Origin: an uncultured Thiogranum sp.
GTDB taxonomy: Bacteria > Pseudomonadota > Gammaproteobacteria > DSM-19610
NCBI GenBank assembly: GCA_965544455.1
Contig: CBEUNK010000001.1
Coordinates: 1-62,525, forward strand
Length of the DNA: 62,525 bases
Direction of reading: 5' to 3'
Every line of letters starts with the position of its first letter. Position 1 is the first letter of the stretch. The translations under genes and the position numbers were made by a program. Positions 32,919 through 61,807 of the stretch are shown here, piece by piece. The notes under the pieces were generated by a model. It was not told the origin of the DNA. It saw only the letters and a program-made list of their open reading frames with translations, and searched no databases.

Positions 32919-32936
32919 GGTTCGCGAAGCCTCGGT

Positions 32937-32952
32937 TGGCGTGGCTTGTGCT
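32937..32952 (+). promoter_or_regulatory. possible sigma54 (-24/-12) element upstream of nosZ
   Basis: TGGCGTG-GCTT-GTGCT has correct GG-N10-GC spacing but is an imperfect match to TGGCACG-N4-TTGCW. Confidence 0.3.
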
Positions 32953-32996
32953 GATGAGCGTTAAACAATAGCAGCAATATCAAGAGGAGAGATGTG

Positions 32997-34907: not shown

Positions 34908-34919
34908 GGTATTTGCGTT

Positions 34920-37143: not shown

Positions 37144-37967
37144 GAGCGATAGCGATACTGGCAGTAAACGAGTTCATGGATGGCCTGCGTAACCGCTGGG
37201 TGGCTGCAGCGATCATTCTGCTGGGGGCCACGGCACTGGCACTGTTGCTGGTAGGGTCCGCGCCTGCGGGTACCGTCCGTGCCGGTGCCCTGGATATCAG
37301 TGTTGTCAGTCTTACCAGTCTGAGTGTCTACCTGTTACCGCTTATCGCCTTGTTGCTCTCCTTTGATGCACTGGTCGGCGAGTTCGAACAAGGCACCATG
37401 TTATTGTTGCTGACCTATCCCGTGGCACGTTGGCAAGTGGTGATGGGTAAATTTACCGGCCACCTGATGATCCTGCTGGTGGCGCTATTCGTCGGTTATG
37501 GCGGTGCCGCCCTGGTCACCATCCTGTTTACGGAAAGTGGTAACACCGGTTGGCAGGCTTACGTCACCATGATGGCCAGTTCACTGATGCTCGGCGCCGT
37601 GTTTATTGCGCTTGGCTATGTGGTCAGTGCAGTGGTACGCGAGCGAAGCACCGCCGCCGGGGCCGCGATCGTCCTGTGGCTGATTTTTGTGGTGTTGTAC
37701 GACCTGGCACTGTTCGGCCTGTTGCTTGCGGATCACGAGCAGAAGATCGGGCAGACACTGTTTTCCACCCTAATGCTGGCGAGCCCGGCCGATACCTACC
37801 GGATTCTGAACCTCACGGCTTTCGACACAGTGGGGCAGGCGGCCGGTATTGCCGGCGTGGCCGCGCGTTCGGGGTTCGGCCTAACCCTGCTGCTGGGCCT
37901 GTTGTGCCTGTGGATCGTGCTACCTCTCGCGGCGACCATGGCGGTGTTTCACCGGCGGGAACTGTAG
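37140..37967 (+). CDS. nosY: NosY ABC permease
   Basis: LRNRWV, SL.SL.VYLLPLIAL, GE.EQGT..LLLTYPV, SP.D.YR..NL. Confidence 0.95.
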   Translation: MRAIAILAVNEFMDGLRNRWVAAAIILLGATALALLLVGSAPAGTVRAGALDISVVSLTSLSVYLLPLIALLLSFDALVGEFEQGTMLLLLTYPVARWQVVMGKFTGHLMILLVALFVGYGGAALVTILFTESGNTGWQAYVTMMASSLMLGAVFIALGYVVSAVVRERSTAAGAAIVLWLIFVVLYDLALFGLLLADHEQKIGQTLFSTLMLASPADTYRILNLTAFDTVGQAAGIAGVAARSGFGLTLLLGLLCLWIVLPLAATMAVFHRREL

Positions 37968-38470
37968 TGAAACGGATCCACAGAACGGCCTGTGGCCTGT
38001 TGTGCGCGCTGCTGCTGTCGGCCTGTACCGAGCCGGATACGGTGACGGTGCCCGCGCCACAGGAGTTGACACGGGATGCCGTGGGTTATTTTTGTGGCAT
38101 GACGGTCCTGGACCATCACGGACCGAAGGGACAGATATTCCTGGCAGACCGGCAACAGCCGCTGTGGTTTACCTCTGTACGCGATACGGTCGCTTTCACG
38201 CGCCTGCCAGGTGAGCCGAAAAACATCACGGCGATTTACGTGACAGACGTGGGGCGAGCTGACTGGGACCAGCCGGAGCCCGGAACATGGATCAATGCGT
38301 ACCGGGCGTTTTACGTCATCGGCAGCGACCGTGTTGGCGGTATGCAGGCGCCGGAACTCGTGCCCTTTGGCGCCAGAAAGGATGCAGAGCAGTTTCAACG
38401 TCAACACGGCGGGCAAATTTACCCTTTCGATGCCATCCCCGCCGAAAGCGTTATCGACACGACGCAGTAG
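37967..38470 (+). CDS. nosL: NosL copper-chaperone lipoprotein
   Basis: GTG start overlaps the nosY stop; lipobox LSAC; CGM...H.GPKGQ; WFTSVRD; GGM.APE.VPF. Confidence 0.93.
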   Translation: MKRIHRTACGLLCALLLSACTEPDTVTVPAPQELTRDAVGYFCGMTVLDHHGPKGQIFLADRQQPLWFTSVRDTVAFTRLPGEPKNITAIYVTDVGRADWDQPEPGTWINAYRAFYVIGSDRVGGMQAPELVPFGARKDAEQFQRQHGGQIYPFDAIPAESVIDTTQ

Positions 38471-43793: not shown

Positions 43794-43822
43794 AAAAATC
43801 CCCGCCCGGCGGGGATTTTTTT
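43794..43822. terminator. bidirectional terminator between mscS and the CHASE2 kinase
   Basis: AAAAATCCCCGC-CCG-GCGGGGATTTTTTT. Confidence 0.85.
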
Positions 43823-46187: not shown

Positions 46188-47953
46188 AACACCAGCAGCA
46201 GGGGAACGGCGAGCACCAGCGGCCACCAGGGGTAGAGCGGAGGCACGTAAAATTTCTGCGGCGGGCTGAAGGGTCCGGCATCACCTGTTAGGTTAATTGC
46301 CCTGACGCGGAAAAAATAGACCTGCGAGGGTGGCCGCGGCAAGTCGATACGCGTGGCCTGAACTTCCGTGTTAACCAGCAGATCCCTGAAATAAGGATCC
46401 GTGGCGAGCTGGAGCTGGTAGTTTCCGGCACCTTCAACGACCTGCCAGGCCAGTATCAGGCGGGCACGATCGAACAGCGGCTGCCGCGTGGCCGGCGCCG
46501 CCAGCGGCGGGCGGTAGGTGAAGTGCCGGGGTGTGTTGAACGGCCCTTGTTGTCCCGCCGTGTCTACGCCGGCGACGCGCCAGTGGTAGGTGCCCGGTGT
46601 CAGCGCTGGCACCTGCCGGAAACTCGTGGACGCGACATTCTGATCGGTGACGAGATCGGCAAAACCGCTATCGCGCGCGACCTGGATGCGGTAGGCGGCG
46701 CTGTCCGGTGTCGCCGTCCAGCTGAATGTCGGCCTGGCAGTGGCAATGACGGCGGTATCGGCCGGACTGGCGCTGGGCGGCGGTACCGGCCGGGCATCGA
46801 CTTCGAAGCGGTATTCGCTGTCGAGGCCTTCCAGGCCGACTTCATCAATACCACGTATCCGCAAAGCGTAATGCCCGTCCGGCAGGTCCTGCCAGTGCGC
46901 GGCCGGTTGTGAGGTTGTCCAGTCGGCCAGCAGGGTTTCGAAGCGGATATCGGGTGCGATCTGCACCCGGTAAGCCTGTGCACCGTCGAGCGCCGGCCAG
47001 TCGAAGTCAAGCGGCAGTTGCCGCTGGACCGCGGGCAGCCGTGACAGGTCCACGGCCGGCAGCAGTTCGCGCGGTTCCCCGAGGGGTTTGCCGGCTTCGG
47101 CAACCAGTCCAAAACCCGCGGGTACGGCAGTGCTCCTGGCGGCGTTACCTACCCCGACAGTGCCTTGTGTCACCTCGCTGCGCATCAGCGCTTTGCCCGC
47201 GTCGGCGGCGACCCGGAATGCGGTGCCGCGCACCGCGGCGACCGCCGCCGGCGTGATGATCTGGTAGCGGCTGCCGGGCCCCCGGGCGGGTTTTACCCGG
47301 GTGTCGACCCGGCCACCTTGCAGGCGTATGCGGGTGTCCACCATGCCCGTGGTGCCCCAGGCGCTGAGACTGTCCATCACCACGGTCGAATCCGCCAGCA
47401 CCAGCAGCTGGGAGCCGTCGGCGAACTGCAGGGTGAGGTTGCTGTCGGCAGCGGTGTTTACCCCGTCACCACTGTGCAATTCAGTACCAACCTCCACGGG
47501 TGCCGGCTGGCCACCGCTCGCTCGCAGTAATTCTGCCCGGCCGTGCAGCCGGGTGACGTGGGCGCTTGCCGGCTGGTGTTTGAGAATACTCAGGGGGAAG
47601 CGCAGCCGGGTGCCTGGCGGGATCTGGCGGTCGAGATCGATGTTGTTCAGTCTCTGAATACGCTGCCAGTAGCGCACGCTGGTGCAGTGCTGTTTGGTCA
47701 GGTTCCAGATATTGTCACCGGGCCGTACCGTGTATTCCCAATACTGTTCGGCCGCACTCGCCGGAGTGCCGGTGAACAGCAGCAACAGCAGGGCAAGTGG
47801 TAACAGTGTGGCCAACCTGATGGCTTGCTGAGGGAAAGTCCTGCAGACAGGTCTGGCAGCCAATGATACATACCCCGTTCTTGTTTGTGTTTTGGTATCA
47901 GCCGTGTTCGGCACCGGTCGGTTCCAGGCGATAACCGTGGTGATAGACGGCAT
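46184..47953 (-). CDS. periplasmic LysM + FecR-like + 3x Fn3/Ig-like protein with C-terminal membrane anchor
   Basis: Signal peptide ending ASA|AE; LysM YTVRPGDNIW...IPPG.RL; FecR-like FADGS...I.TPAAVAAVRGTAFRV; three W...Y..Q.A.D..F repeats; C-terminal WWPLVLAVPLLLVL. The true start is probably downstream of 47953. Confidence 0.85.
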   Translation of the reverse strand: MPSITTVIAWNRPVPNTADTKTQTRTGYVSLAARPVCRTFPQQAIRLATLLPLALLLLLFTGTPASAAEQYWEYTVRPGDNIWNLTKQHCTSVRYWQRIQRLNNIDLDRQIPPGTRLRFPLSILKHQPASAHVTRLHGRAELLRASGGQPAPVEVGTELHSGDGVNTAADSNLTLQFADGSQLLVLADSTVVMDSLSAWGTTGMVDTRIRLQGGRVDTRVKPARGPGSRYQIITPAAVAAVRGTAFRVAADAGKALMRSEVTQGTVGVGNAARSTAVPAGFGLVAEAGKPLGEPRELLPAVDLSRLPAVQRQLPLDFDWPALDGAQAYRVQIAPDIRFETLLADWTTSQPAAHWQDLPDGHYALRIRGIDEVGLEGLDSEYRFEVDARPVPPPSASPADTAVIATARPTFSWTATPDSAAYRIQVARDSGFADLVTDQNVASTSFRQVPALTPGTYHWRVAGVDTAGQQGPFNTPRHFTYRPPLAAPATRQPLFDRARLILAWQVVEGAGNYQLQLATDPYFRDLLVNTEVQATRIDLPRPPSQVYFFRVRAINLTGDAGPFSPPQKFYVPPLYPWWPLVLAVPLLLVL

Positions 47954-48596
47954 TCAGGCGCCAGCCGCGCTCGGGCCGTATTCCCAGTTTGTTACGCAGG
48001 CGACTGACGTGGGTATCGACGGTACGGGTCGTCAGCTCGCTGCGCACACCCCAGACGTTTTCCAGTAGGTAACCGCGGGACAACAGTCTGCCACTGTTAC
48101 GGAAGAGCAGCAACGCCAGTTGAAATTCCTTGTTGGTCAGGCCGATGGTCTGGTTGTCCACGTTTACCTGCTGGTTATTGATATCGAATTCAAAGGGGGC
48201 GCAATGGTAAACGGGCTTCTCCGTCGTTTCCGGCAGGGCGCGGCGCAGCAGTGCACTGATGCGTGCCATGGTTTCGCTGCGCTTGATCGGCTTGGTCATG
48301 TAGTCGTCGGCACCGCTCTCCAGGGCCAGCACGATGTCCTGTTCGCGGTCACGACTGGTGGTAAACAGTACCGGGATATCCCAGTCGAGTTGCTGCCGGA
48401 CCCAGACCAGCATCTCGGGGCCGCTGGTGTCGGGCAGGTTCCAGTCCAGCACCAGCAGGTCGAAGGTCTCGCGCCGGATCGCGTCCTGGAAATCGCCGCC
48501 ATTGGCAAAGCCGTAACTTTCGTGACCGGCTTCGCCGAGCCAGCACTGGAGCAGCTCCAGCTGGGCGCTGTCGTCTTCCAGTATTGCGATTCGCAC
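47898..48596 (-). CDS. OmpR/PhoB-family response regulator
   Basis: IAILEDD, LDWNLPD, GADDYMTKP, LTNKEF, TRTVDTHVSRLR.KL. Confidence 0.95.
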   Translation of the reverse strand: MRIAILEDDSAQLELLQCWLGEAGHESYGFANGGDFQDAIRRETFDLLVLDWNLPDTSGPEMLVWVRQQLDWDIPVLFTTSRDREQDIVLALESGADDYMTKPIKRSETMARISALLRRALPETTEKPVYHCAPFEFDINNQQVNVDNQTIGLTNKEFQLALLLFRNSGRLLSRGYLLENVWGVRSELTTRTVDTHVSRLRNKLGIRPERGWRLNAVYHHGYRLEPTGAEHG

Positions 48597-50520: not shown

Positions 50521-52761
50521 TCAGGACTGTTTCTGATACTCCTTCAGCACAGTGCCGACAGCACGGTCCATCAGCGGAATATTGTTGACGATACGTGCGC
50601 GGGCTACGCGCAGCAGTTGCGCCAGTTCTTCCTGGCTGTAGTTGCCGGCCTTCAACCCCTGCCGGTCGGTAAACAGGTAGGTGCTGGTAATCGGGCTGAT
50701 CCAGCTCAGCTTGACCCGGGTCGTCTTGCCATCACTACCGTTAATCTCGATCCAGGTTCCGGTTGTGAGTTGCCTGACGCGGGCGCTGTGTTCATCGTCG
50801 ATGGGGGCGGTTTTACCGGCCTTGTCATCTTTCGATTTTTTATTCGCGGCATGTTTGCCACGCAGCGATTTTACCGGCGTCACCTTGTCTGTTGCCGCGG
50901 GTTCACTGGCCACCTCATCCTTGTGCTCGTCGATGTCGCCATCTGACATTTCCTTATTGACAGCGGTACGACCATGGGCATGCACCAGCCTGGCGATGAA
51001 ATCATCGCGTTCGGTGGCCGGGATCGACAGGCGCTCCATGCCGGCGCGCAGGTTATTCAGCAGGCTGGGCTGGATGGCAACAAGGCGTTTGCGGTCCTCA
51101 ACCGAGTGTTTGGGTTTGACACTCCAGATCAGGTCATCCATGGTTGCGACCGCCTGTTTCCACGCATCACTGTCCTTTCCCTGGCGCGCACAGGTGATGA
51201 ATAACAGGTTCTTCCAGTGGCTGGTCACAAATTCACGCACGAAATCCAGGCTGTCCTCGCCACTGACGCGGGGTTCGATTTCTTCCAGTGTCGTCGACTT
51301 GGCAACCTCCAGGCGCTCCTGGCCTTCCATGACCTTGGCCGAGCGCTCGGCGCGGACCTCCGCACGTTCCTGTTCCTGTTGCAGGAAGCCGTCAAGGTCT
51401 TCGAGCAGGGATTCGAACAGGCGGCTGTCGTCCTCGAACTCATCAAGAATGGTTTGTACGACAGCTTCTACTTTACGGAACACCGGATCATCGTTGCCCT
51501 GCTGTTCGTCCCAGCCGACTGCCGTGTCCGCCAGGCGGTTCAGCAGCTGGCGCGCCGGGTGCGACTTGCGCGTGAAGAATTCGCGTTCCAGCAAGGCCAC
51601 CTTGAGTACCGGGATCTGCAGGCGGCCGATGAGGGCTCGCATGGCATCCGGGATGTTGCGGTCGTCCAGGATGTAGTCGAACAGCATGGCGACAATGTCG
51701 ATGGTCATGTCACCGGATTTACCCAGGTCCTGGACAAGTGGGGAAGCCTTGATACCGTGCAGGATATTCACCTGACCGGAAGCCAGCGCCGAGGGATCGA
51801 CGGTAAAGCCGGCACCCTGGTCATTGGCCGCGGCAACGCCGCCCTGTTGCAGGAAGGTCAGGGCGCTGATCGAGGCCTGGGCGCCGCCCGGGTAGCCGCC
51901 ACCAGGTATGCCGGTCTGGAAAAACGGGCCGCCGTGGTCCGCTGGTACACCCTGCCCGTAATCGACCGACTCGTAGCCGGTAGACTGTTCGTCGCCGGAT
52001 TCAGGCATATAGGTGGCCTGCGGACGCGGCACGGGGTGGCTGGACTTGCGCACCGTGGTGCGGATTTCCGGCAGTACGCCGAGTTTCACCAGGTGCTGGT
52101 TGAGTTCCTTGTATAACTCGTCCATGTGGCAGACGACGTGCTGGTCGAACAGCTTGAAGATAACCAGGCGGATTTCAAGACCGGTTTCGATCCGCTTGGC
52201 AGCATCACGGAAGGCGTTACAAAGTGCTTCGGGGCCGAGCGGATTATGCCAGCGCTCCAGGTCCGGGTCGCTGATCAGGAACCCGATGCGCTTGTCCAGC
52301 GAATAGAGTGACTGGGTACAGGTGCCGCGAATCTTGTTGACCATATTGGAGATGGCCAGGTCTTCTTCCATGTCGTTCTTGTCCACCAGCCCCAGCGATG
52401 CGTCGTCTTCAAAGTTCAGGCTGAAAGCTTCGCCACTCTGCACCTGGCGGGGTACGCCCTGGTTGAAGCGGCTTTCGAATCCCTGGATGAAATCTTCCTC
52501 GATATCCTTGCGGATAATGCGCAGCTCGCGCATGGCATCGAAGTACTGGGTCTGCACCGTGTTGCTTTCGGCCTTTTCGGCACGGGCAAACAGGGCGTCG
52601 TCGATTTTTTCCATCATGCGCCCGACGTGGTGCTGCAGGCGGCTGCCAGCGAGTTTGCGTATTTCACTTAATGCCTTGGTTCCGGGGCCGTTCCCGAGCC
52701 CTCGCCGCATTTGCCCGTAATCGTCCAGGCTGACAACATTTCTCTTGGCGGTATCTGACAT
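50521..52761 (-). CDS. DUF1631-family protein
   Basis: DDALF..AE, NPLGP..L, LN..L...GVLP, IDIV.MLFDYIL.D, LQIP.LK.A...FF....HPAR.LLN, DLIWSV.P, G.WIE...KLSW.SP....YLF. Start at MSDTAKR. Confidence 0.85.
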   Translation of the reverse strand: MSDTAKRNVVSLDDYGQMRRGLGNGPGTKALSEIRKLAGSRLQHHVGRMMEKIDDALFARAEKAESNTVQTQYFDAMRELRIIRKDIEEDFIQGFESRFNQGVPRQVQSGEAFSLNFEDDASLGLVDKNDMEEDLAISNMVNKIRGTCTQSLYSLDKRIGFLISDPDLERWHNPLGPEALCNAFRDAAKRIETGLEIRLVIFKLFDQHVVCHMDELYKELNQHLVKLGVLPEIRTTVRKSSHPVPRPQATYMPESGDEQSTGYESVDYGQGVPADHGGPFFQTGIPGGGYPGGAQASISALTFLQQGGVAAANDQGAGFTVDPSALASGQVNILHGIKASPLVQDLGKSGDMTIDIVAMLFDYILDDRNIPDAMRALIGRLQIPVLKVALLEREFFTRKSHPARQLLNRLADTAVGWDEQQGNDDPVFRKVEAVVQTILDEFEDDSRLFESLLEDLDGFLQQEQERAEVRAERSAKVMEGQERLEVAKSTTLEEIEPRVSGEDSLDFVREFVTSHWKNLLFITCARQGKDSDAWKQAVATMDDLIWSVKPKHSVEDRKRLVAIQPSLLNNLRAGMERLSIPATERDDFIARLVHAHGRTAVNKEMSDGDIDEHKDEVASEPAATDKVTPVKSLRGKHAANKKSKDDKAGKTAPIDDEHSARVRQLTTGTWIEINGSDGKTTRVKLSWISPITSTYLFTDRQGLKAGNYSQEELAQLLRVARARIVNNIPLMDRAVGTVLKEYQKQS

Positions 52762-52930
52762 GGCTGCACCAGTGGTTTCGGTTATGTAAATGGTTATCGT
52801 CCAGGACTTATTGATAGCACAACGCAATACCGGATTATGTGATCAGCTCGGCAAAAAAGTGATTGCGGTGTTCTCCAGTTTTGCCTTTACGGGTCGTTAA
52901 CAGATGTAACGAAAACCGGTAGATACGCCC

Positions 52931-53815
52931 ATGATTACGCAAAATTCACCGCTGGCCAGCCAGACACAGAAAGACTCCATTGTCGCCCTGCTGGACGACG
53001 TCGAAGGCCTGGTGTCGCCACCGGATGTCTGCATGCGCCTGTTCGAACTGATTCACCTGCCGACCACCGGGGCCAGGGAAATTGCCAACGTGGTCAGCGT
53101 CGATCCCAACCTGACGGCGCGCCTGTTGCGCATGGCCAACAGTTCGTTCTACAGTTTCAGCCGCAAAATCGATACGGTCAGCCGCGCAGTTACCATTGTC
53201 GGCAATGCCGAGCTGTACCAGCTGGTGTTATCGATCTCCGCCGTCAAGTCGTTCACCTGTATTCCCAATGAGCTGGTCAGGATGGAGACCTTCTGGCGTC
53301 ACAGTGTTTACACGGGCCTGCTGGCGCGCGCGCTGGCCACGCGGGCCAACGTGCTGCACCCGGAACGCCTGTTCGTGGCGGGCCTGATGCACGACCTCGG
53401 CAGCCTGGTGCTCTATAACCAGCGACCTGACGCCATGCGTGACATCCTGTTGGTAGCCGACGGCGACGAGGAAGTGCTTTACCAGGCCGAACTGGAGCGC
53501 TTTCACTTCAGTCATGCCAGCGTGGCGGCCCACATGATGGAGCAGTGGCAGTTACCGGAAGTGCTGATCGAAGCTATCCAGTGGCACCACCAGCCGGAAC
53601 GTGCCGTCGAAGCCGGCATCGAGGCGCATATCCTCTACCTGGCCAATCACCTGGTGAACGAGTCGGAGCAGGGCAATTTCATGGGGTCGCCCAAGGCCGA
53701 TATCCAGATCTCCCAGGCACTCCTCGATGTGATCGGGCTGCAGGAAGACGAACTGTTTTTCGCCTTCGAGGAAGCCGCCGAACAATTCCCGACCACCCTC
53801 CAGTCACTGATTTAG
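52931..53815 (+). CDS. HDOD-domain protein
   Basis: L.SPP.V, DPNLTARLLRMANSSFY, FWRHSV, AGLMHDLG, HA.V.A.M...WQLP, WHHQP. Confidence 0.9.
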   Translation: MITQNSPLASQTQKDSIVALLDDVEGLVSPPDVCMRLFELIHLPTTGAREIANVVSVDPNLTARLLRMANSSFYSFSRKIDTVSRAVTIVGNAELYQLVLSISAVKSFTCIPNELVRMETFWRHSVYTGLLARALATRANVLHPERLFVAGLMHDLGSLVLYNQRPDAMRDILLVADGDEEVLYQAELERFHFSHASVAAHMMEQWQLPEVLIEAIQWHHQPERAVEAGIEAHILYLANHLVNESEQGNFMGSPKADIQISQALLDVIGLQEDELFFAFEEAAEQFPTTLQSLI

Positions 53816-53926: not shown

Positions 53927-55633
53927 ATGGAAGAAGCCGCCACAGCCACCCTTGAGGTCAAGCCGTCGGATTTGCCGGCACCGCCCAAGGACGCCATTCG
54001 TATTGTGCAGGCCTGCTCGAAAAGCGGTGTCGACAGCCGTGACCTGGGCGGAATCGTCGCCAACGACCCGGTCCTGACCGCGGAACTGTTGCGCATTGCC
54101 AATTCAGCCTTTTTCGGCCTGGTCAGCCAGGTCAGGTCGGTAGCCCGCGCGGTGACTGTCCTGGGGAACCGTGCCTTGCGCAACCTGGTGCTGTGTATCT
54201 CCATGCGTGATGCCCTGCGCTCGGACTCCATCCCGGGTTTCGACATCGATGCCTACTGGGAGGATGCCCTGCGGCGTGCGGTCAGCGCGCGCAGCCTGGC
54301 GAGCCTCGCCGGCCTGGATGCCGACGAGTGTTTCACCGCCGGCCTGCTGCAGGATTTCGGCCTGCTGGTCATGCTGTACCTGATGCCCGACCGCGTTCAG
54401 CACTGGCAGACCCTGTCGCAGGCAACGCCGGAACAGCGGCGTGACCTGGAAATCGACCTGTTTCATACCACGCACGACGAAGTTGGCCTGCTGCTGGCCA
54501 CCAGCTGGGGACTGCCGCCCGAGCTGGCATCGGCCATGGGCTACCACCACGACGGTCCCCCCGAGGATGCCGACCCGCAGGATGTCATGCTCTGCCGCGT
54601 GGCAACGTGTGCCGACTGGATGGCGGCGGTTTATCGCAGTGATGACAAGCGGCTGGCGATCCAGCGTACCCGTTCACTGCTGAAGAACTATTTCGAGGCC
54701 ACTCCTGAACATACCGATTACCTGTTGCAGAGCGTGGCGGAATCGGTGGCCGAGGCCGCCAGCGCCATGGGCATGCGGGTGGGCGAACAGATACAGTTCG
54801 ACGCTGTGCTGCGTGAGGCCAACCTGCGCCTGGCGGAAGAAAACCTCAGCTACCAGGAGCTGACCTGGCGTCTTGAACAGACACTCGCCGAGCGCGACCG
54901 GATCGCCGAGGAATTGCGCCGCGAACTGGAGTTGGCGCGTGAAGTGCAGAAAAGCCTGTTACCCTGTCATGGCGTCCGCGTTGGCGGTGCAACGGGCATC
55001 AATCTGTCCGCCAAGGCGGTTTCCGGTGATTTCTATGACTACTATCAGCTGGCGGACGGCCGGCTTGCCTTCTGCCTGGCCGATGTTTCGGGCAAGGGTA
55101 TGCACGCTGCGCTGTTGATGGCCAAGACCGCCAGCCTGTTCCGCTGCCTGGGCAAGGGTATCCATGACCCGGGTAAACTGCTTGCCATGCTGAACCGGGA
55201 AATTGCCGAGACCGCGATACGCGGCATGTTCGTGACCATGCTGGCCGGGGTGGTCGAACCTGCCAGCGGTGAAGTGGTGCTGGCCAACGCCGGCCACCTG
55301 CCGGCCCTGCACATGGGCTGTGCGGCCCTGATCGGCGAGTATCCCGCCAAGGCGCCCCCCCTGGGCATCGACGCCGACAGTGTTTTTCCCAATGAAACTT
55401 TCGCATTAGAGGGGGGTTGTCTATACCTTTATACAGACGGCCTGCTGGAAGCCCGGCTGGGCGAGGGTCGGCTGGAAATGACCGGGCTGCTCCGCCTGCT
55501 CAAGGAATATGCGCATTTGCCCCTTGAGGCGCGGACCCAGGCAATTGCCGATGCCGTACTGGACGCCGGTGGCGTTGTTGAGGACGATCTGACACTGGTG
55601 ATTATCGAGGGAAGCAAACAGCATGGCCTGTGA
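53927..55633 (+). CDS. HDOD + coiled coil + SpoIIE/RsbU-type PP2C phosphatase
   Basis: HDOD (DPVLTAELLRIANSAFF, AGLLQDFG, WGLP). PP2C metal-binding motifs intact: VSGDFYD, LADVSGKG, NAGH, YTDGL, DDLT. Confidence 0.92.
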   Translation: MEEAATATLEVKPSDLPAPPKDAIRIVQACSKSGVDSRDLGGIVANDPVLTAELLRIANSAFFGLVSQVRSVARAVTVLGNRALRNLVLCISMRDALRSDSIPGFDIDAYWEDALRRAVSARSLASLAGLDADECFTAGLLQDFGLLVMLYLMPDRVQHWQTLSQATPEQRRDLEIDLFHTTHDEVGLLLATSWGLPPELASAMGYHHDGPPEDADPQDVMLCRVATCADWMAAVYRSDDKRLAIQRTRSLLKNYFEATPEHTDYLLQSVAESVAEAASAMGMRVGEQIQFDAVLREANLRLAEENLSYQELTWRLEQTLAERDRIAEELRRELELAREVQKSLLPCHGVRVGGATGINLSAKAVSGDFYDYYQLADGRLAFCLADVSGKGMHAALLMAKTASLFRCLGKGIHDPGKLLAMLNREIAETAIRGMFVTMLAGVVEPASGEVVLANAGHLPALHMGCAALIGEYPAKAPPLGIDADSVFPNETFALEGGCLYLYTDGLLEARLGEGRLEMTGLLRLLKEYAHLPLEARTQAIADAVLDAGGVVEDDLTLVIIEGSKQHGL

Positions 55634-56045
55634 TGACGAGCTGGTCTTACTGAGCTTCTGTTCCAGGCCCAGCCGGCTGAAACTGTTGCGCTGCGTGATT
55701 CGTGACGCGGCTGATATGGCCGGGCTGGACGCCGCGGCCACCGACGCAGTGGTACTGGCGGTGAACGAGGCCTGTATGAATATCATTCAACACGGCTACA
55801 AGATGGATCCCAACGGTCGTATCGATGTCAGAGTCAGTAGAGAACCCGGGGCGCTGGTCTTCCAGCTGCGCGACTACGCCCGCTGTGTCGATGTCGAAAA
55901 GGTCTGCTCGCGTGACCTGGATGATGTCCGGCCGGGTGGGCTGGGTGTACACCTGATCGGTTGCCTGATGGACGAGTGTGGTTTTCTGGAGCCCCCTGAA
56001 GGCGGTGGCAACCTGTTTCAAATGAAAAAGCTGGTCGAAGCCTAG
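55623..56045 (+). CDS. RsbW/SpoIIAB-like serine kinase (HATPase_c_2)
   Basis: LAVNEACMNIIQHGY N-box, RPGGLGVHLI..LMD, GGNL..M.K; 11-nt overlap with the phosphatase gene. Confidence 0.9.
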   Translation: MACDDELVLLSFCSRPSRLKLLRCVIRDAADMAGLDAAATDAVVLAVNEACMNIIQHGYKMDPNGRIDVRVSREPGALVFQLRDYARCVDVEKVCSRDLDDVRPGGLGVHLIGCLMDECGFLEPPEGGGNLFQMKKLVEA

Positions 56046-56054
56046 GAGGCGGAT

Positions 56055-56387
56055 ATGCCATTTCCAGTGGAAGAAAAGCAGGGTTTTTCCGTTGTACTGC
56101 TGAACGGCGAAGTCGACCTCAGCAAGTCACCGGACGCACGCAAGGTAATCCTCAACAGTCTGAAGAAGATGAAACACGTTATGGTCGACCTGTCGGCCGT
56201 GGACTATATCGACAGTTCCGGGGTCGCCAGCCTGGTGGAGGGCTTTCAGTACGCCCGCTCGAATAATCTCGAGTTCGGCCTGATCGGCGTCAGCGAGGCG
56301 GCCATGAGCGTGCTGCGGCTGGCCCGGCTCGACCAGGTGTTCCGTATCTACGCATCGCTGGAAGAGCGGCTCACCAATGGCGACTGA
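56055..56387 (+). CDS. STAS protein, RsbV/SpoIIAA-like
   Basis: L.GEVD, DLSAVDYIDSSG with phosphoacceptor Ser, L.LARLD.VF; SD AGGAGG. Confidence 0.92.
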   Translation: MPFPVEEKQGFSVVLLNGEVDLSKSPDARKVILNSLKKMKHVMVDLSAVDYIDSSGVASLVEGFQYARSNNLEFGLIGVSEAAMSVLRLARLDQVFRIYASLEERLTNGD

Positions 56388-57192
56388 AATTCAGGCCGGC
56401 GGCTTTCGCGGTTTCAGCGAACGTATCGGGCGGCAGTTCGTCAGCGGCGTCGAGGATTTCGGTTACGGTGCATTGCTGCTGGGTGAAAGCCTGTTCTGGC
56501 TGGTGCTCGGTCGCTGGTGGCAGCAACCGGTGCGCTCGCAGGCGATGGTCAAGGAAATGATGGAAATCGGCGTGCTGGCCATTCCGGTGCTGGCGATCCT
56601 GGCCTTTGCCAACGGCGCCATGATGGCCATGCAGGGCATTTATACCCTGCGCGACTTCGGCGCGGAGTCACAGGTGATTACCGGTATTGCCACCTCGGTC
56701 ACGCGTGAGTTCGGCGTATTGATTGCCGGTATCGTCGTTGCCGGTCGATCCGGTTCGGCGATTGCCGCGCGTATCGGGACCATGCAGATGGCCCAGGAAA
56801 TCGATGCCCTGCGGGTCATGGGTGTGGCGCCGGTGCGCTACCTGGTGGCGCCGATCCTGGTGGCCATGCTGGTGATGATGCCGACGCTGACCATACTGTC
56901 CAATTCGATGGCGATCCTGGGAGGCGGGGTAATTTCCATCATGGAACTGCACATCAGTCTCGGCACCTATTTTGAGCGGGTACTGAGCGTGCTGGAACCC
57001 GCCGACATCTGGCAGGGTCTGTCCAAGAGCCTGGTGTTCGGTGTGTTGCTGACCCTGGTGGCGACCGGTAACGGTTTTAACGCCAGTGGCGGTGCCGAGG
57101 GGCTCGGACGTGCCACCACCCGCTCGGTGGTGTTGTGTATCAGTGCCATCGTGGTCGCCGACATGGTTTTCACTTTTTATCTGATCCTGTAA
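56377..57192 (+). CDS. MlaE-family ABC permease
   Basis: REFG..IAGIVVAGRSGSAIAARIGTM...QEIDALRVMG..P..YLV.P, GG..GLG.ATT.SVV; no fused N-terminal STAS. Confidence 0.93.
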   Translation: MATEIQAGGFRGFSERIGRQFVSGVEDFGYGALLLGESLFWLVLGRWWQQPVRSQAMVKEMMEIGVLAIPVLAILAFANGAMMAMQGIYTLRDFGAESQVITGIATSVTREFGVLIAGIVVAGRSGSAIAARIGTMQMAQEIDALRVMGVAPVRYLVAPILVAMLVMMPTLTILSNSMAILGGGVISIMELHISLGTYFERVLSVLEPADIWQGLSKSLVFGVLLTLVATGNGFNASGGAEGLGRATTRSVVLCISAIVVADMVFTFYLIL

Positions 57193-58016
57193 TGACAGTA
57201 TCGGCGCAACAGACAGATCGTCCCGTTATCGAGGTGGAAAACCTCGTGACCTACTATGGTCGGCAGAAAGTGCTGGACCGTGTGTCGCTGGATGTCGGCG
57301 ATGGCGAGATCATGGTCATCATGGGCGGCAGTGGTTCGGGCAAGTCGACCCTGTTGCGCTACCTGCTCGGTCTGCACCGGCCGGACAGCGGCATTATCCG
57401 TTTGTTCGGGAGCGATACCAGCACGTTGAGCGGCCGTGAGTGGATGGCACTGCGCAGGAAAATGGGCGTGTCCTTCCAGGGTGGGGCACTGTTCAACTCC
57501 ATGACAGTGGGTGAAAATGTGTGCATGCCGTTACGCGAGCATACGCGCCTGGACGAGAATACCATGCGCATCATGAGTCGCATGAAACTGGAAGTGGTCA
57601 ATCTGGCCGGTTTCGAGCACCTGATGCCGTCCCAGTTGTCGGGTGGCATGCTCAAACGTGCGGCACTGGCACGCGCCCTGGTCATGGACCCCAGCCTGTT
57701 GTTTTTCGATGAACCCTCGGCGGGGCTCGACCCGGTAGTGGCGGCTGATCTGGATAACCTGATTCTGCGGATCCGCGACGCCATGCAGGTGTCCATTGTG
57801 GTCGTGACGCACGAACTTGAAAGCGCCTTCGCCATCGCCGATCGTATTACCGTGCTCGACCACGGACGAATCCTGATGGTCGGCACCGTCGACGAGGTGC
57901 GCAACTCCGATATTCAACGGGTGAGAAACCTGCTCTCGCGCACAGCGGAAGAACAGCAGGTCGATGCCGACGAATACCTGCACCGCCTCACCGCCAACAT
58001 GGGCCACAGATCATGA
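57192..58016 (+). CDS. MlaF-family ABC ATPase
   Basis: GGSGSGKST, FQGGALFNSMTV.ENV, LSGGM.KRAALARA, DEPSAGLDP; TAATG overlap. Confidence 0.94.
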   Translation: MTVSAQQTDRPVIEVENLVTYYGRQKVLDRVSLDVGDGEIMVIMGGSGSGKSTLLRYLLGLHRPDSGIIRLFGSDTSTLSGREWMALRRKMGVSFQGGALFNSMTVGENVCMPLREHTRLDENTMRIMSRMKLEVVNLAGFEHLMPSQLSGGMLKRAALARALVMDPSLLFFDEPSAGLDPVVAADLDNLILRIRDAMQVSIVVVTHELESAFAIADRITVLDHGRILMVGTVDEVRNSDIQRVRNLLSRTAEEQQVDADEYLHRLTANMGHRS

Positions 58017-58960
58017 GGCGCGAGACGATCAATTATTTCGCCGTCGGCCTGTTCGTCCTGGCCGGCCTGGCCGTGCTGCTGTTCGCCTTGTACCACCTGG
58101 TCAGCGGTGTGGGTGACCGCGAGGTCTACTACACCCGTTATCACAATGTCGCCGGTGTCTCACCGGGCACGCTGGTGACCTACGAGGGTTACACCCTGGG
58201 ACACGTGTCGGCGATCGAGCCGCAACGTACCACGGAGGGTATGCGCTACCGGGTCGAATTGCAGCTGCAGCCGGGCTGGCAGATACCGGACGACAGCATC
58301 GCCCGTATCTATTCCGAGGGGCTGCTGGCAGACACGGTGGTCAATATTTCCGAAGGGCAGAGTGCCACCTTCGTGGAACCGGGCGGCCTGCTGAAAGGCG
58401 AGCAGGGTGTGGACCTGTTTGCGACCGTGGGTGAGCTGGCCGGTGACATTGGCGACTTGAGCGAGCACGCTATCCGGCCCTTGCTCGAGAGCCTTAACCG
58501 TTCCGTGCAGCAGGTCGGCGGCGAACTGGAAAACCGCCTGCCGGTGATCCTCGATGGGGTCGAGAAACTGGTGGCGAAACTCGACAGCAGCGCCACCCAC
58601 CTGTCGGGCGTGCTGAATGCCGAAACCGAGACCCAGGCGCGGCGTATACTGAACAACATTGACCAAACCGCCACGGATTTCCAGGCGTTGAGCCAGGGCC
58701 TGCTGGAGGTCAAGCGTGATGCCCTGCACCTGATCGGCAACCTCGACGGCCTGGTCACGCAAAGTCAGCCGGAATTACAGCAGGCGGTGACCGACCTGCG
58801 GCGTGTCCTGCAACAGGTAGCACGCTACAGCGACGGCATCCTGCAGAACCTCGACAGCACCAGCCGCAACATGAGCGAGTTCAGCCGCCAGATCCGGGAA
58901 AACCCAGGCCGTCTGCTGGGTACCAGCGCCCCGCGCGACAAGGGGGTCCGACGTGAATAA
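58013..58960 (+). CDS. MlaD/MCE-domain protein with long helical tail
   Basis: NYFAVGLFV TM helix, V.G...G..V.Y.G...G.V..I MCE motif, GLL, helical region ending IRENP..LL. Confidence 0.92.
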   Translation: MRRETINYFAVGLFVLAGLAVLLFALYHLVSGVGDREVYYTRYHNVAGVSPGTLVTYEGYTLGHVSAIEPQRTTEGMRYRVELQLQPGWQIPDDSIARIYSEGLLADTVVNISEGQSATFVEPGGLLKGEQGVDLFATVGELAGDIGDLSEHAIRPLLESLNRSVQQVGGELENRLPVILDGVEKLVAKLDSSATHLSGVLNAETETQARRILNNIDQTATDFQALSQGLLEVKRDALHLIGNLDGLVTQSQPELQQAVTDLRRVLQQVARYSDGILQNLDSTSRNMSEFSRQIRENPGRLLGTSAPRDKGVRRE

Positions 58961-59567
58961 AACCATCGGATTGCTGTTGCTGTTTTTACTTGTCGGCGGC
59001 TGCGTGTCGACAGAGCCGGTACCCGAAGACCGCTTCTACCGTCTCGAACGCATCCGGCCGGTGCAAACGCTGGTAAAACCGGCGTTGCACGGCGGCCTGG
59101 CGGTCGACTATGTCCAGGCCGATCCCCTGCGCAGCGGTCGCGCGGTGTTGTACAGCGACCGCGATCACCCCCTGCAACTGCAGCGCTATCATTACGAGTT
59201 CTGGGTGGATCAGCCACCCCGCCTGCTGCACCAGGCGCTGCTTTCCTATTTGCGTGACAGCGGCGTTGCGGACAGGGTGGTCGACACCGCCGTAACCACC
59301 GCGGCAGCCTACCGTTTGCAGCTGCGTCTGCTGAAGTTCGAGCAGGTGTTGAACGGGCAGTCCGCCGATGTCGAGGTTGCCATGCAGGCCACGCTGTCAT
59401 CCGGTGCAGCCGACACGGTATTGTGGACCCGCACCTACGAACACCGGCAAGCCGGCAGCAGCCGGCAGATGCACGCCACTGCCGGTACCATGCAGCAGGC
59501 GCTCGGCGAGCTGTTTGCTACCCTGCAGGCCGACCTGGCCGCCTCGCCGGCACAGAAGAAGCCATAG
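58953..59567 (+). CDS. PqiC-like ABC-transport auxiliary lipoprotein
   Basis: Lipobox VGGC, FYRL, Y.Y..W.D.P, L.L.LL.FEQ; 8-nt overlap with the MCE gene. Confidence 0.85.
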   Translation: MNKTIGLLLLFLLVGGCVSTEPVPEDRFYRLERIRPVQTLVKPALHGGLAVDYVQADPLRSGRAVLYSDRDHPLQLQRYHYEFWVDQPPRLLHQALLSYLRDSGVADRVVDTAVTTAAAYRLQLRLLKFEQVLNGQSADVEVAMQATLSSGAADTVLWTRTYEHRQAGSSRQMHATAGTMQQALGELFATLQADLAASPAQKKP

Positions 59568-59599: not shown

Positions 59600-61807
59600 A
59601 TGGTTGCACGCGCTGAAACACACACGCCCGCCGATGGGCAGGCACCCGATCTCGAGGCCTGGTTACAGGTCGTCGCTGACGGGCGTGACAATGCCGGTCA
59701 GCAATTGATCAGGCAGGCGCTGGAGTGTGCCCGCGACGCGCACCTCGGCCAGGCGCGCGCCTCCGGTGAGCCCTACCTGACCCATTGCCTGGCCGTGGCC
59801 GAGATTGTCCACCACCTGAACCTGGATCCCGAGTCCGTCGCCGCCGCGTTGTTGCATGACGTGGTGGAAGATACCGACATCACGCTTGACGATATCAGCC
59901 AGGGGTTTGGTGCCGGCGTGGCCTCGCTGGTGGATGGCGTAACCAAGATGGGCCACCTGGGCGAGATGCGCGAACCGGCAAGTGGTAAAACGGCCCGCGC
60001 CTCGCAGCAGGCCGAAAGCGTGCGCAAGCTGCTGCTGGCCATGGCCGAAGATGTGCGCGTGGTACTGATCAAGCTGTCCGACCGGCTGCACAACATGCGC
60101 ACCCTGCGCTACCTCGACGAGGTGCGTCAACGGCGCATCTCGCGTGAAACGCTCGAAATCTATGCACCCCTGGCCAACCGCCTGGGTATCTGGCAGGTCA
60201 AGTGGGAGCTTGAGGACCTGGCGCTGCGCTATCTTGATCCGGACGCCTACCACCATATCGCTTCATTGCTGGATGGGCGGCGTATCGACCGCGAAAGCCA
60301 TATCGAGCAGGTCAAACAGCAGTTGCGCAAATCATTCGAACAGGCTGGTGTCGATGCTGAAATAACCGGCCGCCCAAAGCATATTTACAGCATCTGGCGA
60401 AAAATGCGCCGCAAGAATGTCGATTTCCACGAAATATTCGACGTGCAGGCGGTGCGGGTGCTGGTCGACAGGCTGGGCGACTGTTACACCGTACTCGGCA
60501 TTGTGCACGGGCTCTGGCACCACGTACCGCACGAATTCGATGACTATATCGCTAACCCGAAGGCGAATAACTACCGTTCACTGCATACCGCAGTTATCGG
60601 CCCGGAAGGCAAGGCCGTGGAAGTGCAGATACGCACGCGCGAAATGCACGAGCACGCCGAGCTCGGCATCGCCGCGCACTGGCGCTACAAGGAGGGTGCG
60701 CGTTACGACGCGGGCTTCGAAGAGAAAATAGCCTGGTTGCGCCAGTTGCTCGAATGGAAAGACGAGGAACCGTCCGCCGATGAGTTTGTCGATCGTTTCA
60801 AATCCGAGTCGGTCGAGGAGCGCGTCTATGTGCTGACGCCGCATGGCAATGTGGTTGATATGCCGGCAGGCGCCACGGCGCTGGATTTCGCCTACCATAT
60901 TCATACCGACGTCGGGCATCGTTGCCGGGGTGTCAAGGTAAACGGTCGCATCGTGCCTTTGTCGTACGAACTGTCATCCGGTCAGCAGGTGGAGGTACTG
61001 ACCGCACGTCATGCTTCACCCAGTCGTGACTGGCTCAATCCCCACCTGGGTTACCTGAAAACCTCGCGCGCACGCGCCAAGGTACGACACTGGTTCAAGC
61101 AACAGGACCGGGATATCAATATTACCGCGGGACGCCATTCACTGGAGCGCGAGTTGCACCGCCTGGGCCTGTCCGATGGTCATCTGGACGAGGTCGCTGC
61201 AAAACTGAATTTTCAGGATATCGACAGCCTGATGGCGGCTCTGGGGCGCGGTGACCTGCAAACCGGCCAGGTAGTCGGTACGGTACTGAGCCTGAGCAAA
61301 ACCGAGGACCAGGAATCGCTGAACGTACCGAGCCGCCGGGCACGGCCGGCACCGGCGCCCAGGGACTTCAGCATCCTGGGTGTCGGAAATCTGCTGACCA
61401 ATGCGGCGCGTTGCTGCAGTCCGGTACCCAACGACGCGATTGTCGGCTACATAACCCGTGGCCGTGGCGTCACCATCCACCGTCGTGACTGCGCCAATGT
61501 GCTGCGACTGAAGGACGAGGACCGCAATCGCCTGATCGACGTCGAATGGGGGGCGCTGCCGGACCGGGTCTTCCCGGTGGATATTCAGCTGCAGGCCTAC
61601 GACCGGCCCGGGCTGCTGCGCGATGTATCGGCCCTGTTGGCCAATGACCAGGTGAATGTCATGGGTATCAATACCCATACCGACAAGAAAGACTTGATTG
61701 CCCGCATGGAGTTGCATATCGAGGTCACCGATATCGGCCAGCTCAGCCGGATACTCAGCCGCATCGGACAGTTGCCGAATGTCATCGAGGTAAAACGCAA
61801 GACCTGA
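59600..61807 (+). CDS. relA: (p)ppGpp synthetase, RelA clade (HD, SYNTH, TGS, ZFD, ACT)
   Basis: RelA-type KWELEDL, GRPKHIYSIWRKM and EFDDY; NYRSLHT, EVQIRT; TGS; CC.P.P.D; ACT. Confidence 0.92.
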   Translation: MVARAETHTPADGQAPDLEAWLQVVADGRDNAGQQLIRQALECARDAHLGQARASGEPYLTHCLAVAEIVHHLNLDPESVAAALLHDVVEDTDITLDDISQGFGAGVASLVDGVTKMGHLGEMREPASGKTARASQQAESVRKLLLAMAEDVRVVLIKLSDRLHNMRTLRYLDEVRQRRISRETLEIYAPLANRLGIWQVKWELEDLALRYLDPDAYHHIASLLDGRRIDRESHIEQVKQQLRKSFEQAGVDAEITGRPKHIYSIWRKMRRKNVDFHEIFDVQAVRVLVDRLGDCYTVLGIVHGLWHHVPHEFDDYIANPKANNYRSLHTAVIGPEGKAVEVQIRTREMHEHAELGIAAHWRYKEGARYDAGFEEKIAWLRQLLEWKDEEPSADEFVDRFKSESVEERVYVLTPHGNVVDMPAGATALDFAYHIHTDVGHRCRGVKVNGRIVPLSYELSSGQQVEVLTARHASPSRDWLNPHLGYLKTSRARAKVRHWFKQQDRDINITAGRHSLERELHRLGLSDGHLDEVAAKLNFQDIDSLMAALGRGDLQTGQVVGTVLSLSKTEDQESLNVPSRRARPAPAPRDFSILGVGNLLTNAARCCSPVPNDAIVGYITRGRGVTIHRRDCANVLRLKDEDRNRLIDVEWGALPDRVFPVDIQLQAYDRPGLLRDVSALLANDQVNVMGINTHTDKKDLIARMELHIEVTDIGQLSRILSRIGQLPNVIEVKRKT

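What the first reader, a model, noticed from the sequence alone, without database searches (positions are those of the whole stretch)
53927..59567. Partner-switching phosphatase/kinase/STAS module welded onto an MlaEFD-PqiC transporter: candidate phospho-regulated MCE transport system
Seen: seven co-oriented genes, HDOD-PP2C, RsbW-like kinase, STAS, MlaE, MlaF, MlaD, PqiC-like. The junctions are overlap 11 nt, gap 9 nt, then overlaps of 11, 1, 4 and 8 nt, implying one translationally coupled operon. No sigma-factor gene occurs in the window. The STAS keeps the YIDSSG phosphoacceptor, and this MlaE has no fused STAS. Known: RsbU/RsbW/RsbV modules usually control a sigma factor; E. coli MlaB is a STAS protein that binds and stabilises MlaF, and many MlaE proteins of E-F-D-lipoprotein operons carry an N-terminal STAS. 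Inference: here the STAS is the MlaB-equivalent subunit, switched by its own kinase and phosphatase, with HDOD as input. That would be post-translational control of lipid or hydrophobic-molecule transport, which I do not know to have been described.
Basis: partly seen in the sequence, partly recalled or inferred. Interest (0 to 1): 0.82.

Follow-up and report, generated by a model that had tools for sequence, protein, structure and literature searches.

The report
Phospho-switch wired to lipid pump ATPase
A kinase, a phosphatase and their small target protein sit in one gene cluster with an envelope lipid transporter in many bacteria and stay next to its ATPase gene when other parts are swapped, so they likely switch the pump on and off by phosphorylation, a control proposed for E. 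coli but never tied to an enzyme.

Summary
The linkage is conserved: of 80 metagenome loci fetched by the STAS alone, 68 of 71 assessable have mlaE/mlaF directly behind it and 67 of 67 the kinase in front. The constant unit is kinase-STAS-MlaF; phosphatase input (HDOD or GAF) and the permease/periplasmic parts are exchanged. The E. coli MlaF residues that touch MlaB (T114, M127, K128, Y261; PMC7784689) are kept: [ML]K in 101 of 105 such MlaFs, 11 of 11 with MlaB, 0 of 22 without a STAS nearby (only 2 phylogenetically independent pairs). The STAS is RsbV-type, not an MlaB by family. Best reading (0.6): phospho-controlled STAS subunit gating an Mla-Pqi bridge transporter. The scan found the GAF-input versions before on other DNA; this is the HDOD-input version.

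The parts
53927..55633 (+). HDOD-PP2C (SpoIIE/RsbU-type) serine phosphatase, 568 aa; HDOD carries QD in place of HD
   Evidence: Pfam HDOD 16-209 and SpoIIE 377-561; metal-binding Asp motifs invariant in 91 of 91 operon homologues, Q142-D143 in 63 of 65
55623..56045 (+). RsbW/SpoIIAB-type serine kinase, 140 aa
   Evidence: HATPase_c_2; best PDB relatives RsbW 6m36 and SpoIIAB; E49, N53, H57, D84, G106, G108 invariant in 99 of 99
56055..56387 (+). stand-alone STAS protein, RsbV/SpoIIAA type, 110 aa; Ser54 (D53-S54-S55) is the predicted phosphoacceptor, aligned to MlaB Thr52
   Evidence: TIGR00377 above cut-off; D53, S54, S55 invariant in 102 of 102; profile 41-91 aligns to MlaB 39-89; model pLDDT 92.7, closest to TM1442/RsbV
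56377..57192 (+). MlaE-type permease without fused STAS, 271 aa
   Evidence: Pfam MlaE 57-267 only; own clade, sister to STAS-fused MlaE
57192..58016 (+). MlaF-type ABC ATPase, 274 aa, with the MlaB-contact residues T118, M131, K132 and a C-terminal helix 259-268 (Y262, L266)
58013..58960 (+). long MlaD/MCE protein (315 aa), bridge type as in MpcD/PqiB needle
   Evidence: Pfam MlaD 38-115; median 315 aa in 85 homologues
58953..59567 (+). PqiC/MpcA-like outer-membrane lipoprotein, 204 aa
   Evidence: PF03886; lipobox-like motif in 71 of 85 homologues
52931..53815 (+). stand-alone HDOD protein upstream; accessory, kept only in close relatives
   Evidence: Pfam HDOD; present in most of L001-L024 and L031, L059, not seen in the more distant loci

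Best explanation
The cluster encodes an Mla-Pqi bridge-type lipid ABC transporter together with a kinase, a phosphatase and a STAS protein, and the STAS likely docks on the ATPase MlaF as a detachable MlaB-like subunit whose phosphorylation would switch the pump. Shown: gene content and order, intact catalytic motifs, co-inheritance of kinase-STAS-MlaF, conservation of the MlaB-contact surface on MlaF. Inferred: unphosphorylated STAS binds the helical subdomain of MlaF (Ser54 facing Lys132, as E. coli Thr52 faces Lys128) and the tail helix of the partner MlaF, which stabilises and activates the ATPase; the RsbW-type kinase binds the same STAS face, phosphorylates Ser54 and so removes it; the PP2C phosphatase, gated by its HDOD domain (GAF in relatives; signal unknown, a nucleotide messenger is a guess), restores it. 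Polarity is the weakest step: I put about 2:1 on 'phosphorylation turns it off' (E. coli T52E weakens MlaF binding), because a clade-specific Arg130 beside Lys132 could instead bind a phosphoserine. Cargo is likely phospholipid or another hydrophobic molecule moved between the membranes; direction unknown.
For: Linkage: 48 of 48 (GTDB, 51 of 66 loci held the STAS), 68 of 71 (metagenome loci chosen by STAS only), 8 of 8 (even sample of 400 genomes of the phylum) have mlaE or mlaF directly downstream; kinase directly upstream in 50 of 51, 67 of 67, 8 of 8. Swaps: in L128/L132/L148/L151/L152, L190 and L312 the module sits with a shuttle-type mlaE (plus short mlaD and mlaC, with mlaA in the first group; L312 shows mlaE only) while mlaF stays in the window's clade (98* SH-aLRT); one clade of all module-linked MlaE is rejected (AU p 2e-5), and moving the swapped MlaF to the shuttle group is rejected weakly (p 0.037). 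In G407 kinase-STAS-mlaF stand alone on one contig and mlaE-D-A-C on another. Of 12 genomes where the HDOD phosphatase has no STAS beside it, 9 carry this STAS next to mlaE/mlaF elsewhere. A second MlaF lineage carries the same module (L318), and in family f41 kinase-STAS close an mla-yhdP cluster lacking mlaB (G009, G045) and are the only stand-alone STAS found in G157 and G105. Contact residues: [ML]K at 131-132 in 101 of 105 module MlaFs, 11 of 11 MlaB-operon, 20 of 34 STAS-fused (K in 34 of 34), 0 of 22 with no STAS in the fetched 9 kb; tail Y-x3-L in 105 of 105, 6 of 11, 1 of 34, 2 of 22 (contacts from PMC7784689, passages). The MlaF model aligns to solved MlaF through the tail (6xbd_I, Z 34.5, rmsd 3.0, 260 residues). 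No sigma gene is linked. The genome's canonical mlaFED has its own mlaB, so this MlaF has no other STAS in its cluster.
Against: No binding, phosphorylation or transport data. The residue signature rests on few lineages: 2 independent pairs, sign test p 0.5, and 'no STAS' was judged within about 9 kb only. The E. coli tail is not needed for MlaB binding and mainly stabilises the dimer (PMC7367683 passages), so its conservation is indirect; the AlphaFold model may echo solved MlaF. The STAS is RsbV-type with the extra strand and helix that MlaB lacks. The module occurs without adjacent mla genes in 3 of 71 metagenome loci (L130, L139, L146) and in G484 and G489, where no MlaF of this clade was found (drafts). 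MlaF of this clade occurs with no adjacent STAS in G161, G105 and G066, and in G066 no STAS of this clade was found (310 contigs). The kinase keeps every RsbW/SpoIIAB feature I could check, including invariant Arg23, so a sigma target is not excluded; the genome has RpoS-, FliA- and ECF-like sigmas.
Confidence: 0.6

Rival explanations
1. Transporter as sensor: the STAS does bind MlaF, but information flows the other way. The state of the pump sets how much STAS is free, free STAS antagonises the kinase, and the kinase's real output is a sigma factor or other regulator encoded elsewhere (an envelope-stress reporter).
For: Fits all co-inheritance and contact-residue data equally well. STAS and kinase are textbook RsbV/RsbW in fold and motifs. 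Partner-switch modules of Gram-negative bacteria act on unlinked targets (Pseudomonas PA3346/PA3347-FlgM, Chlamydia sigma66; PMC8256260, part 2 of the text read).
Against: No conserved sigma or regulator is linked in 142 loci; the module spans lineages with different sigma sets (RpoS is absent from Alphaproteobacteria, recalled); a dedicated phosphatase with its own sensor domain would be redundant as input.
Confidence: 0.17
2. Ordinary anti-anti-sigma module: phosphatase, kinase and STAS control a sigma factor elsewhere (RpoS, FliA or an ECF), and the transporter genes are only co-transcribed members of the stress response.
For: STAS scores as anti-sigma antagonist, not MlaB; modules persist away from mla genes in L130, L139, L146, G484, G489; genome holds candidate sigmas.
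Against: Does not explain why STAS stays with mlaF specifically when mlaE/D are swapped or moved, why MlaF keeps the MlaB-contact residues that STAS-less MlaFs lose, or why none of these clusters has an mlaB or fused STAS.
Confidence: 0.13
3. Constitutive subunit: the STAS is a permanent MlaB substitute recruited from a partner-switch operon; kinase and phosphatase act on another substrate or tune something unrelated to transport.
For: E. coli MlaB is a required subunit with no demonstrated phosphorylation (PMC7367683); the HDOD phosphatase is often at a separate locus (12 of 66 GTDB loci); f41 loci have kinase-STAS without an adjacent phosphatase.
Against: Kinase is directly upstream of the STAS in nearly every locus (median gap 9 nt, 90 of 99 within 30 nt), catalytic residues and Ser54 are invariant, and tblastn found no other RsbW or PP2C of these types in this genome (89% complete).
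Confidence: 0.1

Closest known systems
E. coli MlaFEDB with the STAS subunit MlaB (PDB 6XGY, 6XBD; PMC5016091, PMC7367683, PMC7784689)
   Same: MlaF/MlaE/MlaD core; a separate STAS gene; MlaF contact residues T114, M127, K128, Y261 kept as T118, M131, K132, Y262; Ser at the Thr52 position.
   Different: STAS is RsbV-type (110 aa, extra strand and helix) not minimal MlaB; cognate kinase and phosphatase are in the cluster; long MlaD plus PqiC-like lipoprotein instead of MlaC/MlaA.
Brucella MpcEFDA, chimeric Mla-Pqi bridge (PMC12436622, passages read)
   Same: Gene order E-F-D-lipoprotein, long MlaD (315 vs 331 aa), PqiC-like lipoprotein, no MlaC.
   Different: Mpc has the STAS fused to the N-terminus of the permease, and no kinase or phosphatase is mentioned in the passages read; MlaFs next to such fused permeases lack the tail helix (1 of 34), here the STAS is free and the tail is invariant.
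RsbU-RsbW-RsbV / SpoIIE-SpoIIAB-SpoIIAA partner switches of Bacillus
   Same: PP2C phosphatase, GHKL serine kinase and phosphorylatable STAS with intact motifs, in one cluster.
   Different: No sigma factor in or near the cluster; a transporter ATPase is the likely partner; HDOD or GAF input.
Sigma-independent or unlinked partner switches: Bordetella BtrU/V/W, Vibrio SypE/SypA, Pseudomonas PA3346/PA3347 (PMC8256260)
   Same: Gram-negative modules in which the STAS itself is the output and no sigma gene is adjacent; relatives here also fuse phosphatase and kinase in one chain.
   Different: Their outputs are secretion, biofilm or flagellar genes, with STAS targets unknown or FlgM; none involves an ABC transporter subunit.

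Membership tests
MlaB (lipid asymmetry STAS subunit) | scores in NCBIfam mlaB_1 / minimal STAS lacking fifth strand and last helix | tested here: not met
   26.9 bits vs cut-off 90; model has E97-99 and H102-108; MlaBs form a separate clade 99/96*
MlaB (lipid asymmetry STAS subunit) | encoded with mlaF/mlaE/mlaD | tested here: met
MlaB (lipid asymmetry STAS subunit) | binds MlaF and is needed for its stability and ATPase activity | not testable with these tools
RsbV/SpoIIAA anti-anti-sigma factors | STAS fold with D-S phosphoacceptor at the start of helix 2 | tested here: met
   TIGR00377 above cut-off; D53-S54 invariant; Foldseek top hits TM1442, RsbV
RsbU-RsbW-RsbV sigma switch | PP2C phosphatase and GHKL kinase with intact catalytic motifs | tested here: met
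RsbU-RsbW-RsbV sigma switch | cognate sigma factor in the same operon | tested here: not met
   none on C1; one opposite-strand RpoD-like gene about 5 kb from the STAS in 142 loci
RsbU-RsbW-RsbV sigma switch | kinase sequesters a sigma factor | not testable with these tools
   needs pull-down; genome has RpoS-, FliA-, RpoH-, ECF-like sigmas, no SigB/SigF-like among 10 hits
Mpc (Mla-Pqi chimeric) bridge transporter | E-F-long D-PqiC-like lipoprotein, no MlaC in the cluster | tested here: met
Mpc (Mla-Pqi chimeric) bridge transporter | STAS fused to the permease N-terminus | tested here: not met
   MlaE 271 aa, MlaE domain only
Mpc (Mla-Pqi chimeric) bridge transporter | moves phospholipid / maintains the outer membrane | not testable with these tools
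   no phenotype data

The most novel reading that the evidence does not exclude
Kinase-STAS-MlaF is a portable, signal-controlled on/off switch for MCE lipid pumps, plugged into both bridge-type and MlaC-shuttle systems across at least two phyla, and the E. coli MlaB is a stripped-down descendant of such a switch that lost its kinase and phosphatase (module-bearing L318 and f41 MlaFs branch as successive sisters of the MlaB-type MlaFs, 99/92* and 99/98*; unrooted, and the STAS tree does not nest MlaB inside the module clade).
Probability: 0.3. Interest if true: 0.87.

Novelty: new variant of a known kind. Interest (0 to 1): 0.72.

Why it matters
Two papers proposed that MlaB is phosphorylated at Thr52 to regulate the Mla lipid transporter but had no kinase or phosphatase (PMC5016091, PMC7367683). 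This cluster supplies a candidate kinase, phosphatase, substrate and ATPase in one place, so the hypothesis can be tested with four small soluble proteins. If right, it is a partner-switch whose output is an ABC ATPase rather than a sigma factor, and a way to control outer-membrane lipid traffic after translation. It also gives the poorly understood HDOD domain a measurable read-out (phosphatase activity). A cultured strain carries the cluster (Thiohalobacter thiocyanaticus Hrh1, L041).

Tried and rejected
RNA evidence: no RNA holder listed; says nothing on expression. Promoter/terminator scan: counts at chance level (2 vs 2.5; 6 vs 7.4), uninformative. Natural STAS fusions: 2 longer hits among 684 candidates; both read as frameshift or assembly artefacts and were rejected as Rosetta-stone evidence. 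Phylogenetically independent test of the residue signature: only 2 pairs, p 0.5. The DSS motif count mis-matched an upstream D-L-S in 12 of 80 rows; I use the alignment instead. Leptospira PP2C-RsbW-STAS loci L067-L079 are a different module (STAS 21-25% identical, no mla hit in the locus) and were left out of the counts. Upstream HDOD gene and downstream relA were considered as core parts and rejected: both are missing from most distant loci. Literature searches for a description of this system: (0 papers; 0 papers) found none; the library holds open-licence papers only, and I read no supplements (e.g. the MlaB synteny tables of PMC10665443 could list such loci). No co-evolution (DCA) analysis: about 100 pairs and no coordinates to map onto.
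Full report
Observation. The seven genes are present as described, all on the + strand from 53927 to 59567, with junctions of overlap 11, gap 9, and overlaps 11, 1, 4 and 8 nt. Pfam gives HDOD plus SpoIIE, HATPase_c_2, STAS, MlaE, ABC_tran, MlaD and ABC_trans_aux. NCBIfam files the STAS as an anti-sigma antagonist (TIGR00377, above cut-off) and not as MlaB. The window is the whole contig C1 of a 2.78-Mb, 89% complete genome; none of its 10 sigma region-4 hits lies on C1. By sequence and context I read them as RpoD, FliA, RpoS, RpoH, RpoE and five other ECF-like proteins (names are my reading). The genome also has a canonical mlaF-mlaE-mlaD-mlaB cluster on C165. The closest relatives are labelled Thiogranum, Thiohalobacter or unclassified Gammaproteobacteria.

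The enzymes look active. In 91 of 91 operon phosphatases the GD.D, DVxGKG, DG and DD.T aspartates are invariant; in 99 of 99 kinases E49, N53, H57 and D84 are invariant and GGLG nearly so. D53-S54-S55 of the STAS are invariant in 102 of 102, and S54 aligns to MlaB T52 (profile 41-91 against chain 39-89). The HDOD has QD instead of HD in 63 of 65; HDOD domains lack phosphodiesterase activity and their mechanism is not established (PMC6543031, passages).

Conservation. Searching GTDB with the phosphatase gave 79 loci; 66 were not Leptospira, 51 of these hold this STAS, and 48 of 48 with enough downstream DNA have mlaE or mlaF next. They include a Desulfobulbaceae bin and a Magnetovibrio bin. In an even sample of 400 genomes of the phylum, 62 of 401 matched: the window's own, 8 strong hits that all sit between kinase and mla genes, and 53 weaker hits in one family, f41. 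The input domain varies: HDOD in 5 of 46 assessable metagenome loci; of 16 phosphatases scanned, 12 had GAF, 2 HDOD and 2 no named input, and 7 were fused to the kinase. One RpoD-like gene was the only sigma hit in 142 module loci (1.43 Mb), against 11 hit regions in the 2.78-Mb genome.

The constant unit is kinase-STAS-MlaF. In L128, L132, L148, L151 and L152 the module is followed by a shuttle-type mlaE, short mlaD, mlaA and mlaC, and an mlaF of the window's clade lies at the end on the opposite strand; in L190 the order is kinase-STAS-mlaF-mlaE-mlaD-mlaC-PP2C; L312 has kinase-STAS-mlaF-mlaE. On trees these MlaFs fall in the window's clade (98*) and their MlaEs on the far side of starred branches; AU tests reject one clade of all module MlaEs (p 2e-5) and, weakly, the swapped MlaFs with shuttle MlaFs (p 0.037) (quick trees on subsets of the rows). 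In G407 kinase-STAS-mlaF stand alone, with mlaE-D-A-C on another contig. Twelve GTDB loci have the HDOD phosphatase with no STAS beside it and three more are cut by contig ends; in 9 of the 12 genomes the STAS lies elsewhere next to mlaE/mlaF, in 2 (G484, G489) it stands alone and no MlaF of this clade was found, and in 1 (G491) only a STAS fused in a long protein was found. A different MlaF lineage carries the same GAF-PP2C/kinase/STAS block in G427 (L318). In f41 (probably Zetaproteobacteria, my inference) kinase-STAS precede a ubiD-like gene; in the single-contig genomes G009 and G045 they close a co-oriented mlaFEDC-yhdP-mlaE-mlaD cluster with no mlaB, in G157 and G029 they are 170-200 kb from mlaF, and in G157 and G105 this is the only stand-alone STAS found.

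A binding surface is kept. In E. coli, MlaB T52 and Q22 contact MlaF K128 and T114, and M127 with Y261 of the partner MlaF pack on MlaB L55, L59 and L90 (PMC7784689, passages). The window's MlaF aligns to E. coli MlaF over equal-length ranges with an offset of 4, giving T118, M131 and K132; Y262 and L266 lie on a predicted tail helix 259-268, and the model aligns to solved MlaF chains through the tail, while most other ABC ATPases align only to about residue 253 (MetN is an exception). Sorting MlaFs by gene context, [ML]K at 131-132 is found in 101 of 105 module MlaFs, 11 of 11 with mlaB seen, 20 of 34 with a long (STAS-fused type) MlaE, where K is kept in 34 of 34, and 0 of 22 with a short MlaE and no STAS in the stretch; a tail Y-x3-L in 105 of 105, 6 of 11, 1 of 34 and 2 of 22 (of the 80 control stretches fetched, those whose context could not be classed were left out). 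The contrast is sharp but comes from few lineages: 2 independent pairs, p 0.5. The E. coli tail is not required for MlaB binding (PMC7367683, passages), so it is the weaker half of the test. Arg130 is found in 99 of 105 module MlaFs and 0 of 11 MlaB-type; whether it faces the STAS is unknown, and it leaves the switch polarity open.

Mechanism. Most likely the STAS has two mutually exclusive partners for its helical face: MlaF and the kinase. By analogy with MlaB, which is needed for MlaF stability, assembly and ATPase activity and whose T52E mimic weakens MlaF binding (PMC5016091 passages; PMC7367683 section 9 and passages), unphosphorylated STAS would keep the pump assembled and active, the kinase would remove it, and the HDOD- or GAF-gated phosphatase would return it. 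The transporter is of the Mpc bridge type described in Brucella (PMC12436622, passages), with the STAS free instead of fused. All steps after gene content, motifs and co-inheritance are inferred. The main rival keeps the STAS-MlaF contact but makes the pump the sensor and an unlinked regulator the output; an ordinary sigma switch with co-transcribed passengers explains the swaps and the surface conservation poorly.

Known and new. Every part belongs to a known family, sigma-less partner switches exist (PMC8256260, part 2 of 5 and passages), and MlaB phosphorylation was proposed in 2016 and 2020 without an enzyme. I found no paper on a kinase/phosphatase/STAS block joined to mla genes in seven searches of the open-licence library; PMC10665443 and PMC1810536 (passages) discuss MlaB or STAS near mla/mce genes without it, and I read no supplements. 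The scan's own notes hold eight earlier findings of the same arrangement with GAF, FHA-GAF or CHASE2 inputs on other DNA; a look-up by the HDOD phosphatase sequence found none. These notes agree with but did not shape the tests here. Verdict: real, conserved, a new variant of known kinds; interest 0.72.

Noticed in passing
G000 contig C165 (L219): Second, canonical mlaF-mlaE-mlaD-mlaB cluster followed by a bolA-like gene and his genes, with no mlaC between mlaD and mlaB; a ready internal control for STAS specificity.
   Followed up: partly
window 52931-53815 (+) and 50521-52827 (-): Stand-alone HDOD protein that keeps the HD pair, divergent from a DUF1631 gene; both flank the cluster in close relatives, and in L018 the HDOD gene abuts or fuses with the phosphatase.
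   Followed up: partly
window 59600-61807 (+): RelA-type GTP pyrophosphokinase 32 nt downstream, co-oriented, conserved in close relatives and within about 2 kb in L035 and L041; may be co-transcribed.
   Followed up: partly
L309:1990-4446, L362, L367: About 820-aa protein with a TLC (ATP/ADP transporter-like) domain and a C-terminal STAS close to this clade (about 100 bits), in three genomes that also carry the HDOD phosphatase; a second possible transporter substrate of the same kinase/phosphatase.
   Followed up: partly
L310, L311 (G009, G045): Cluster mlaF-mlaE-mlaD-mlaC-yhdP-divergent mlaE-unnamed gene-long mlaD-TPR protein-kinase-STAS-ubiD-like: two MCE systems, YhdP and the kinase-STAS pair in one co-oriented run.
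   Followed up: partly
L130, L139: PP2C-kinase-STAS of this clade followed not by mla genes but by a 747-aa gene that looks like a CHASE2 adenylate cyclase, opposite an FHA/PP2C/kinase cluster (read by eye).
   Followed up: no
G066 (L242, L313): mlaF and mlaE of this clade on separate contigs, mlaF with a very long branch, no STAS of the clade found; looks like a decaying or misassembled locus.
   Followed up: partly
L317 (G445): An MlaB-like STAS (DTAG) directly before an mlaF that is sister to the window's clade and has the same tail, with no kinase nearby: a possible kinase-less relative.
   Followed up: partly
window 43821-48596 (-): OmpR-type regulator, LysM-FecR-Ig protein and CHASE2 histidine kinase in a row.
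   Followed up: no
window about 30630-38470 (+): Run of ORFs whose N-termini look like a nitrous-oxide reductase cluster (nosR, nosZ, nosD, nosF, nosY); recalled resemblance, not tested.
   Followed up: no
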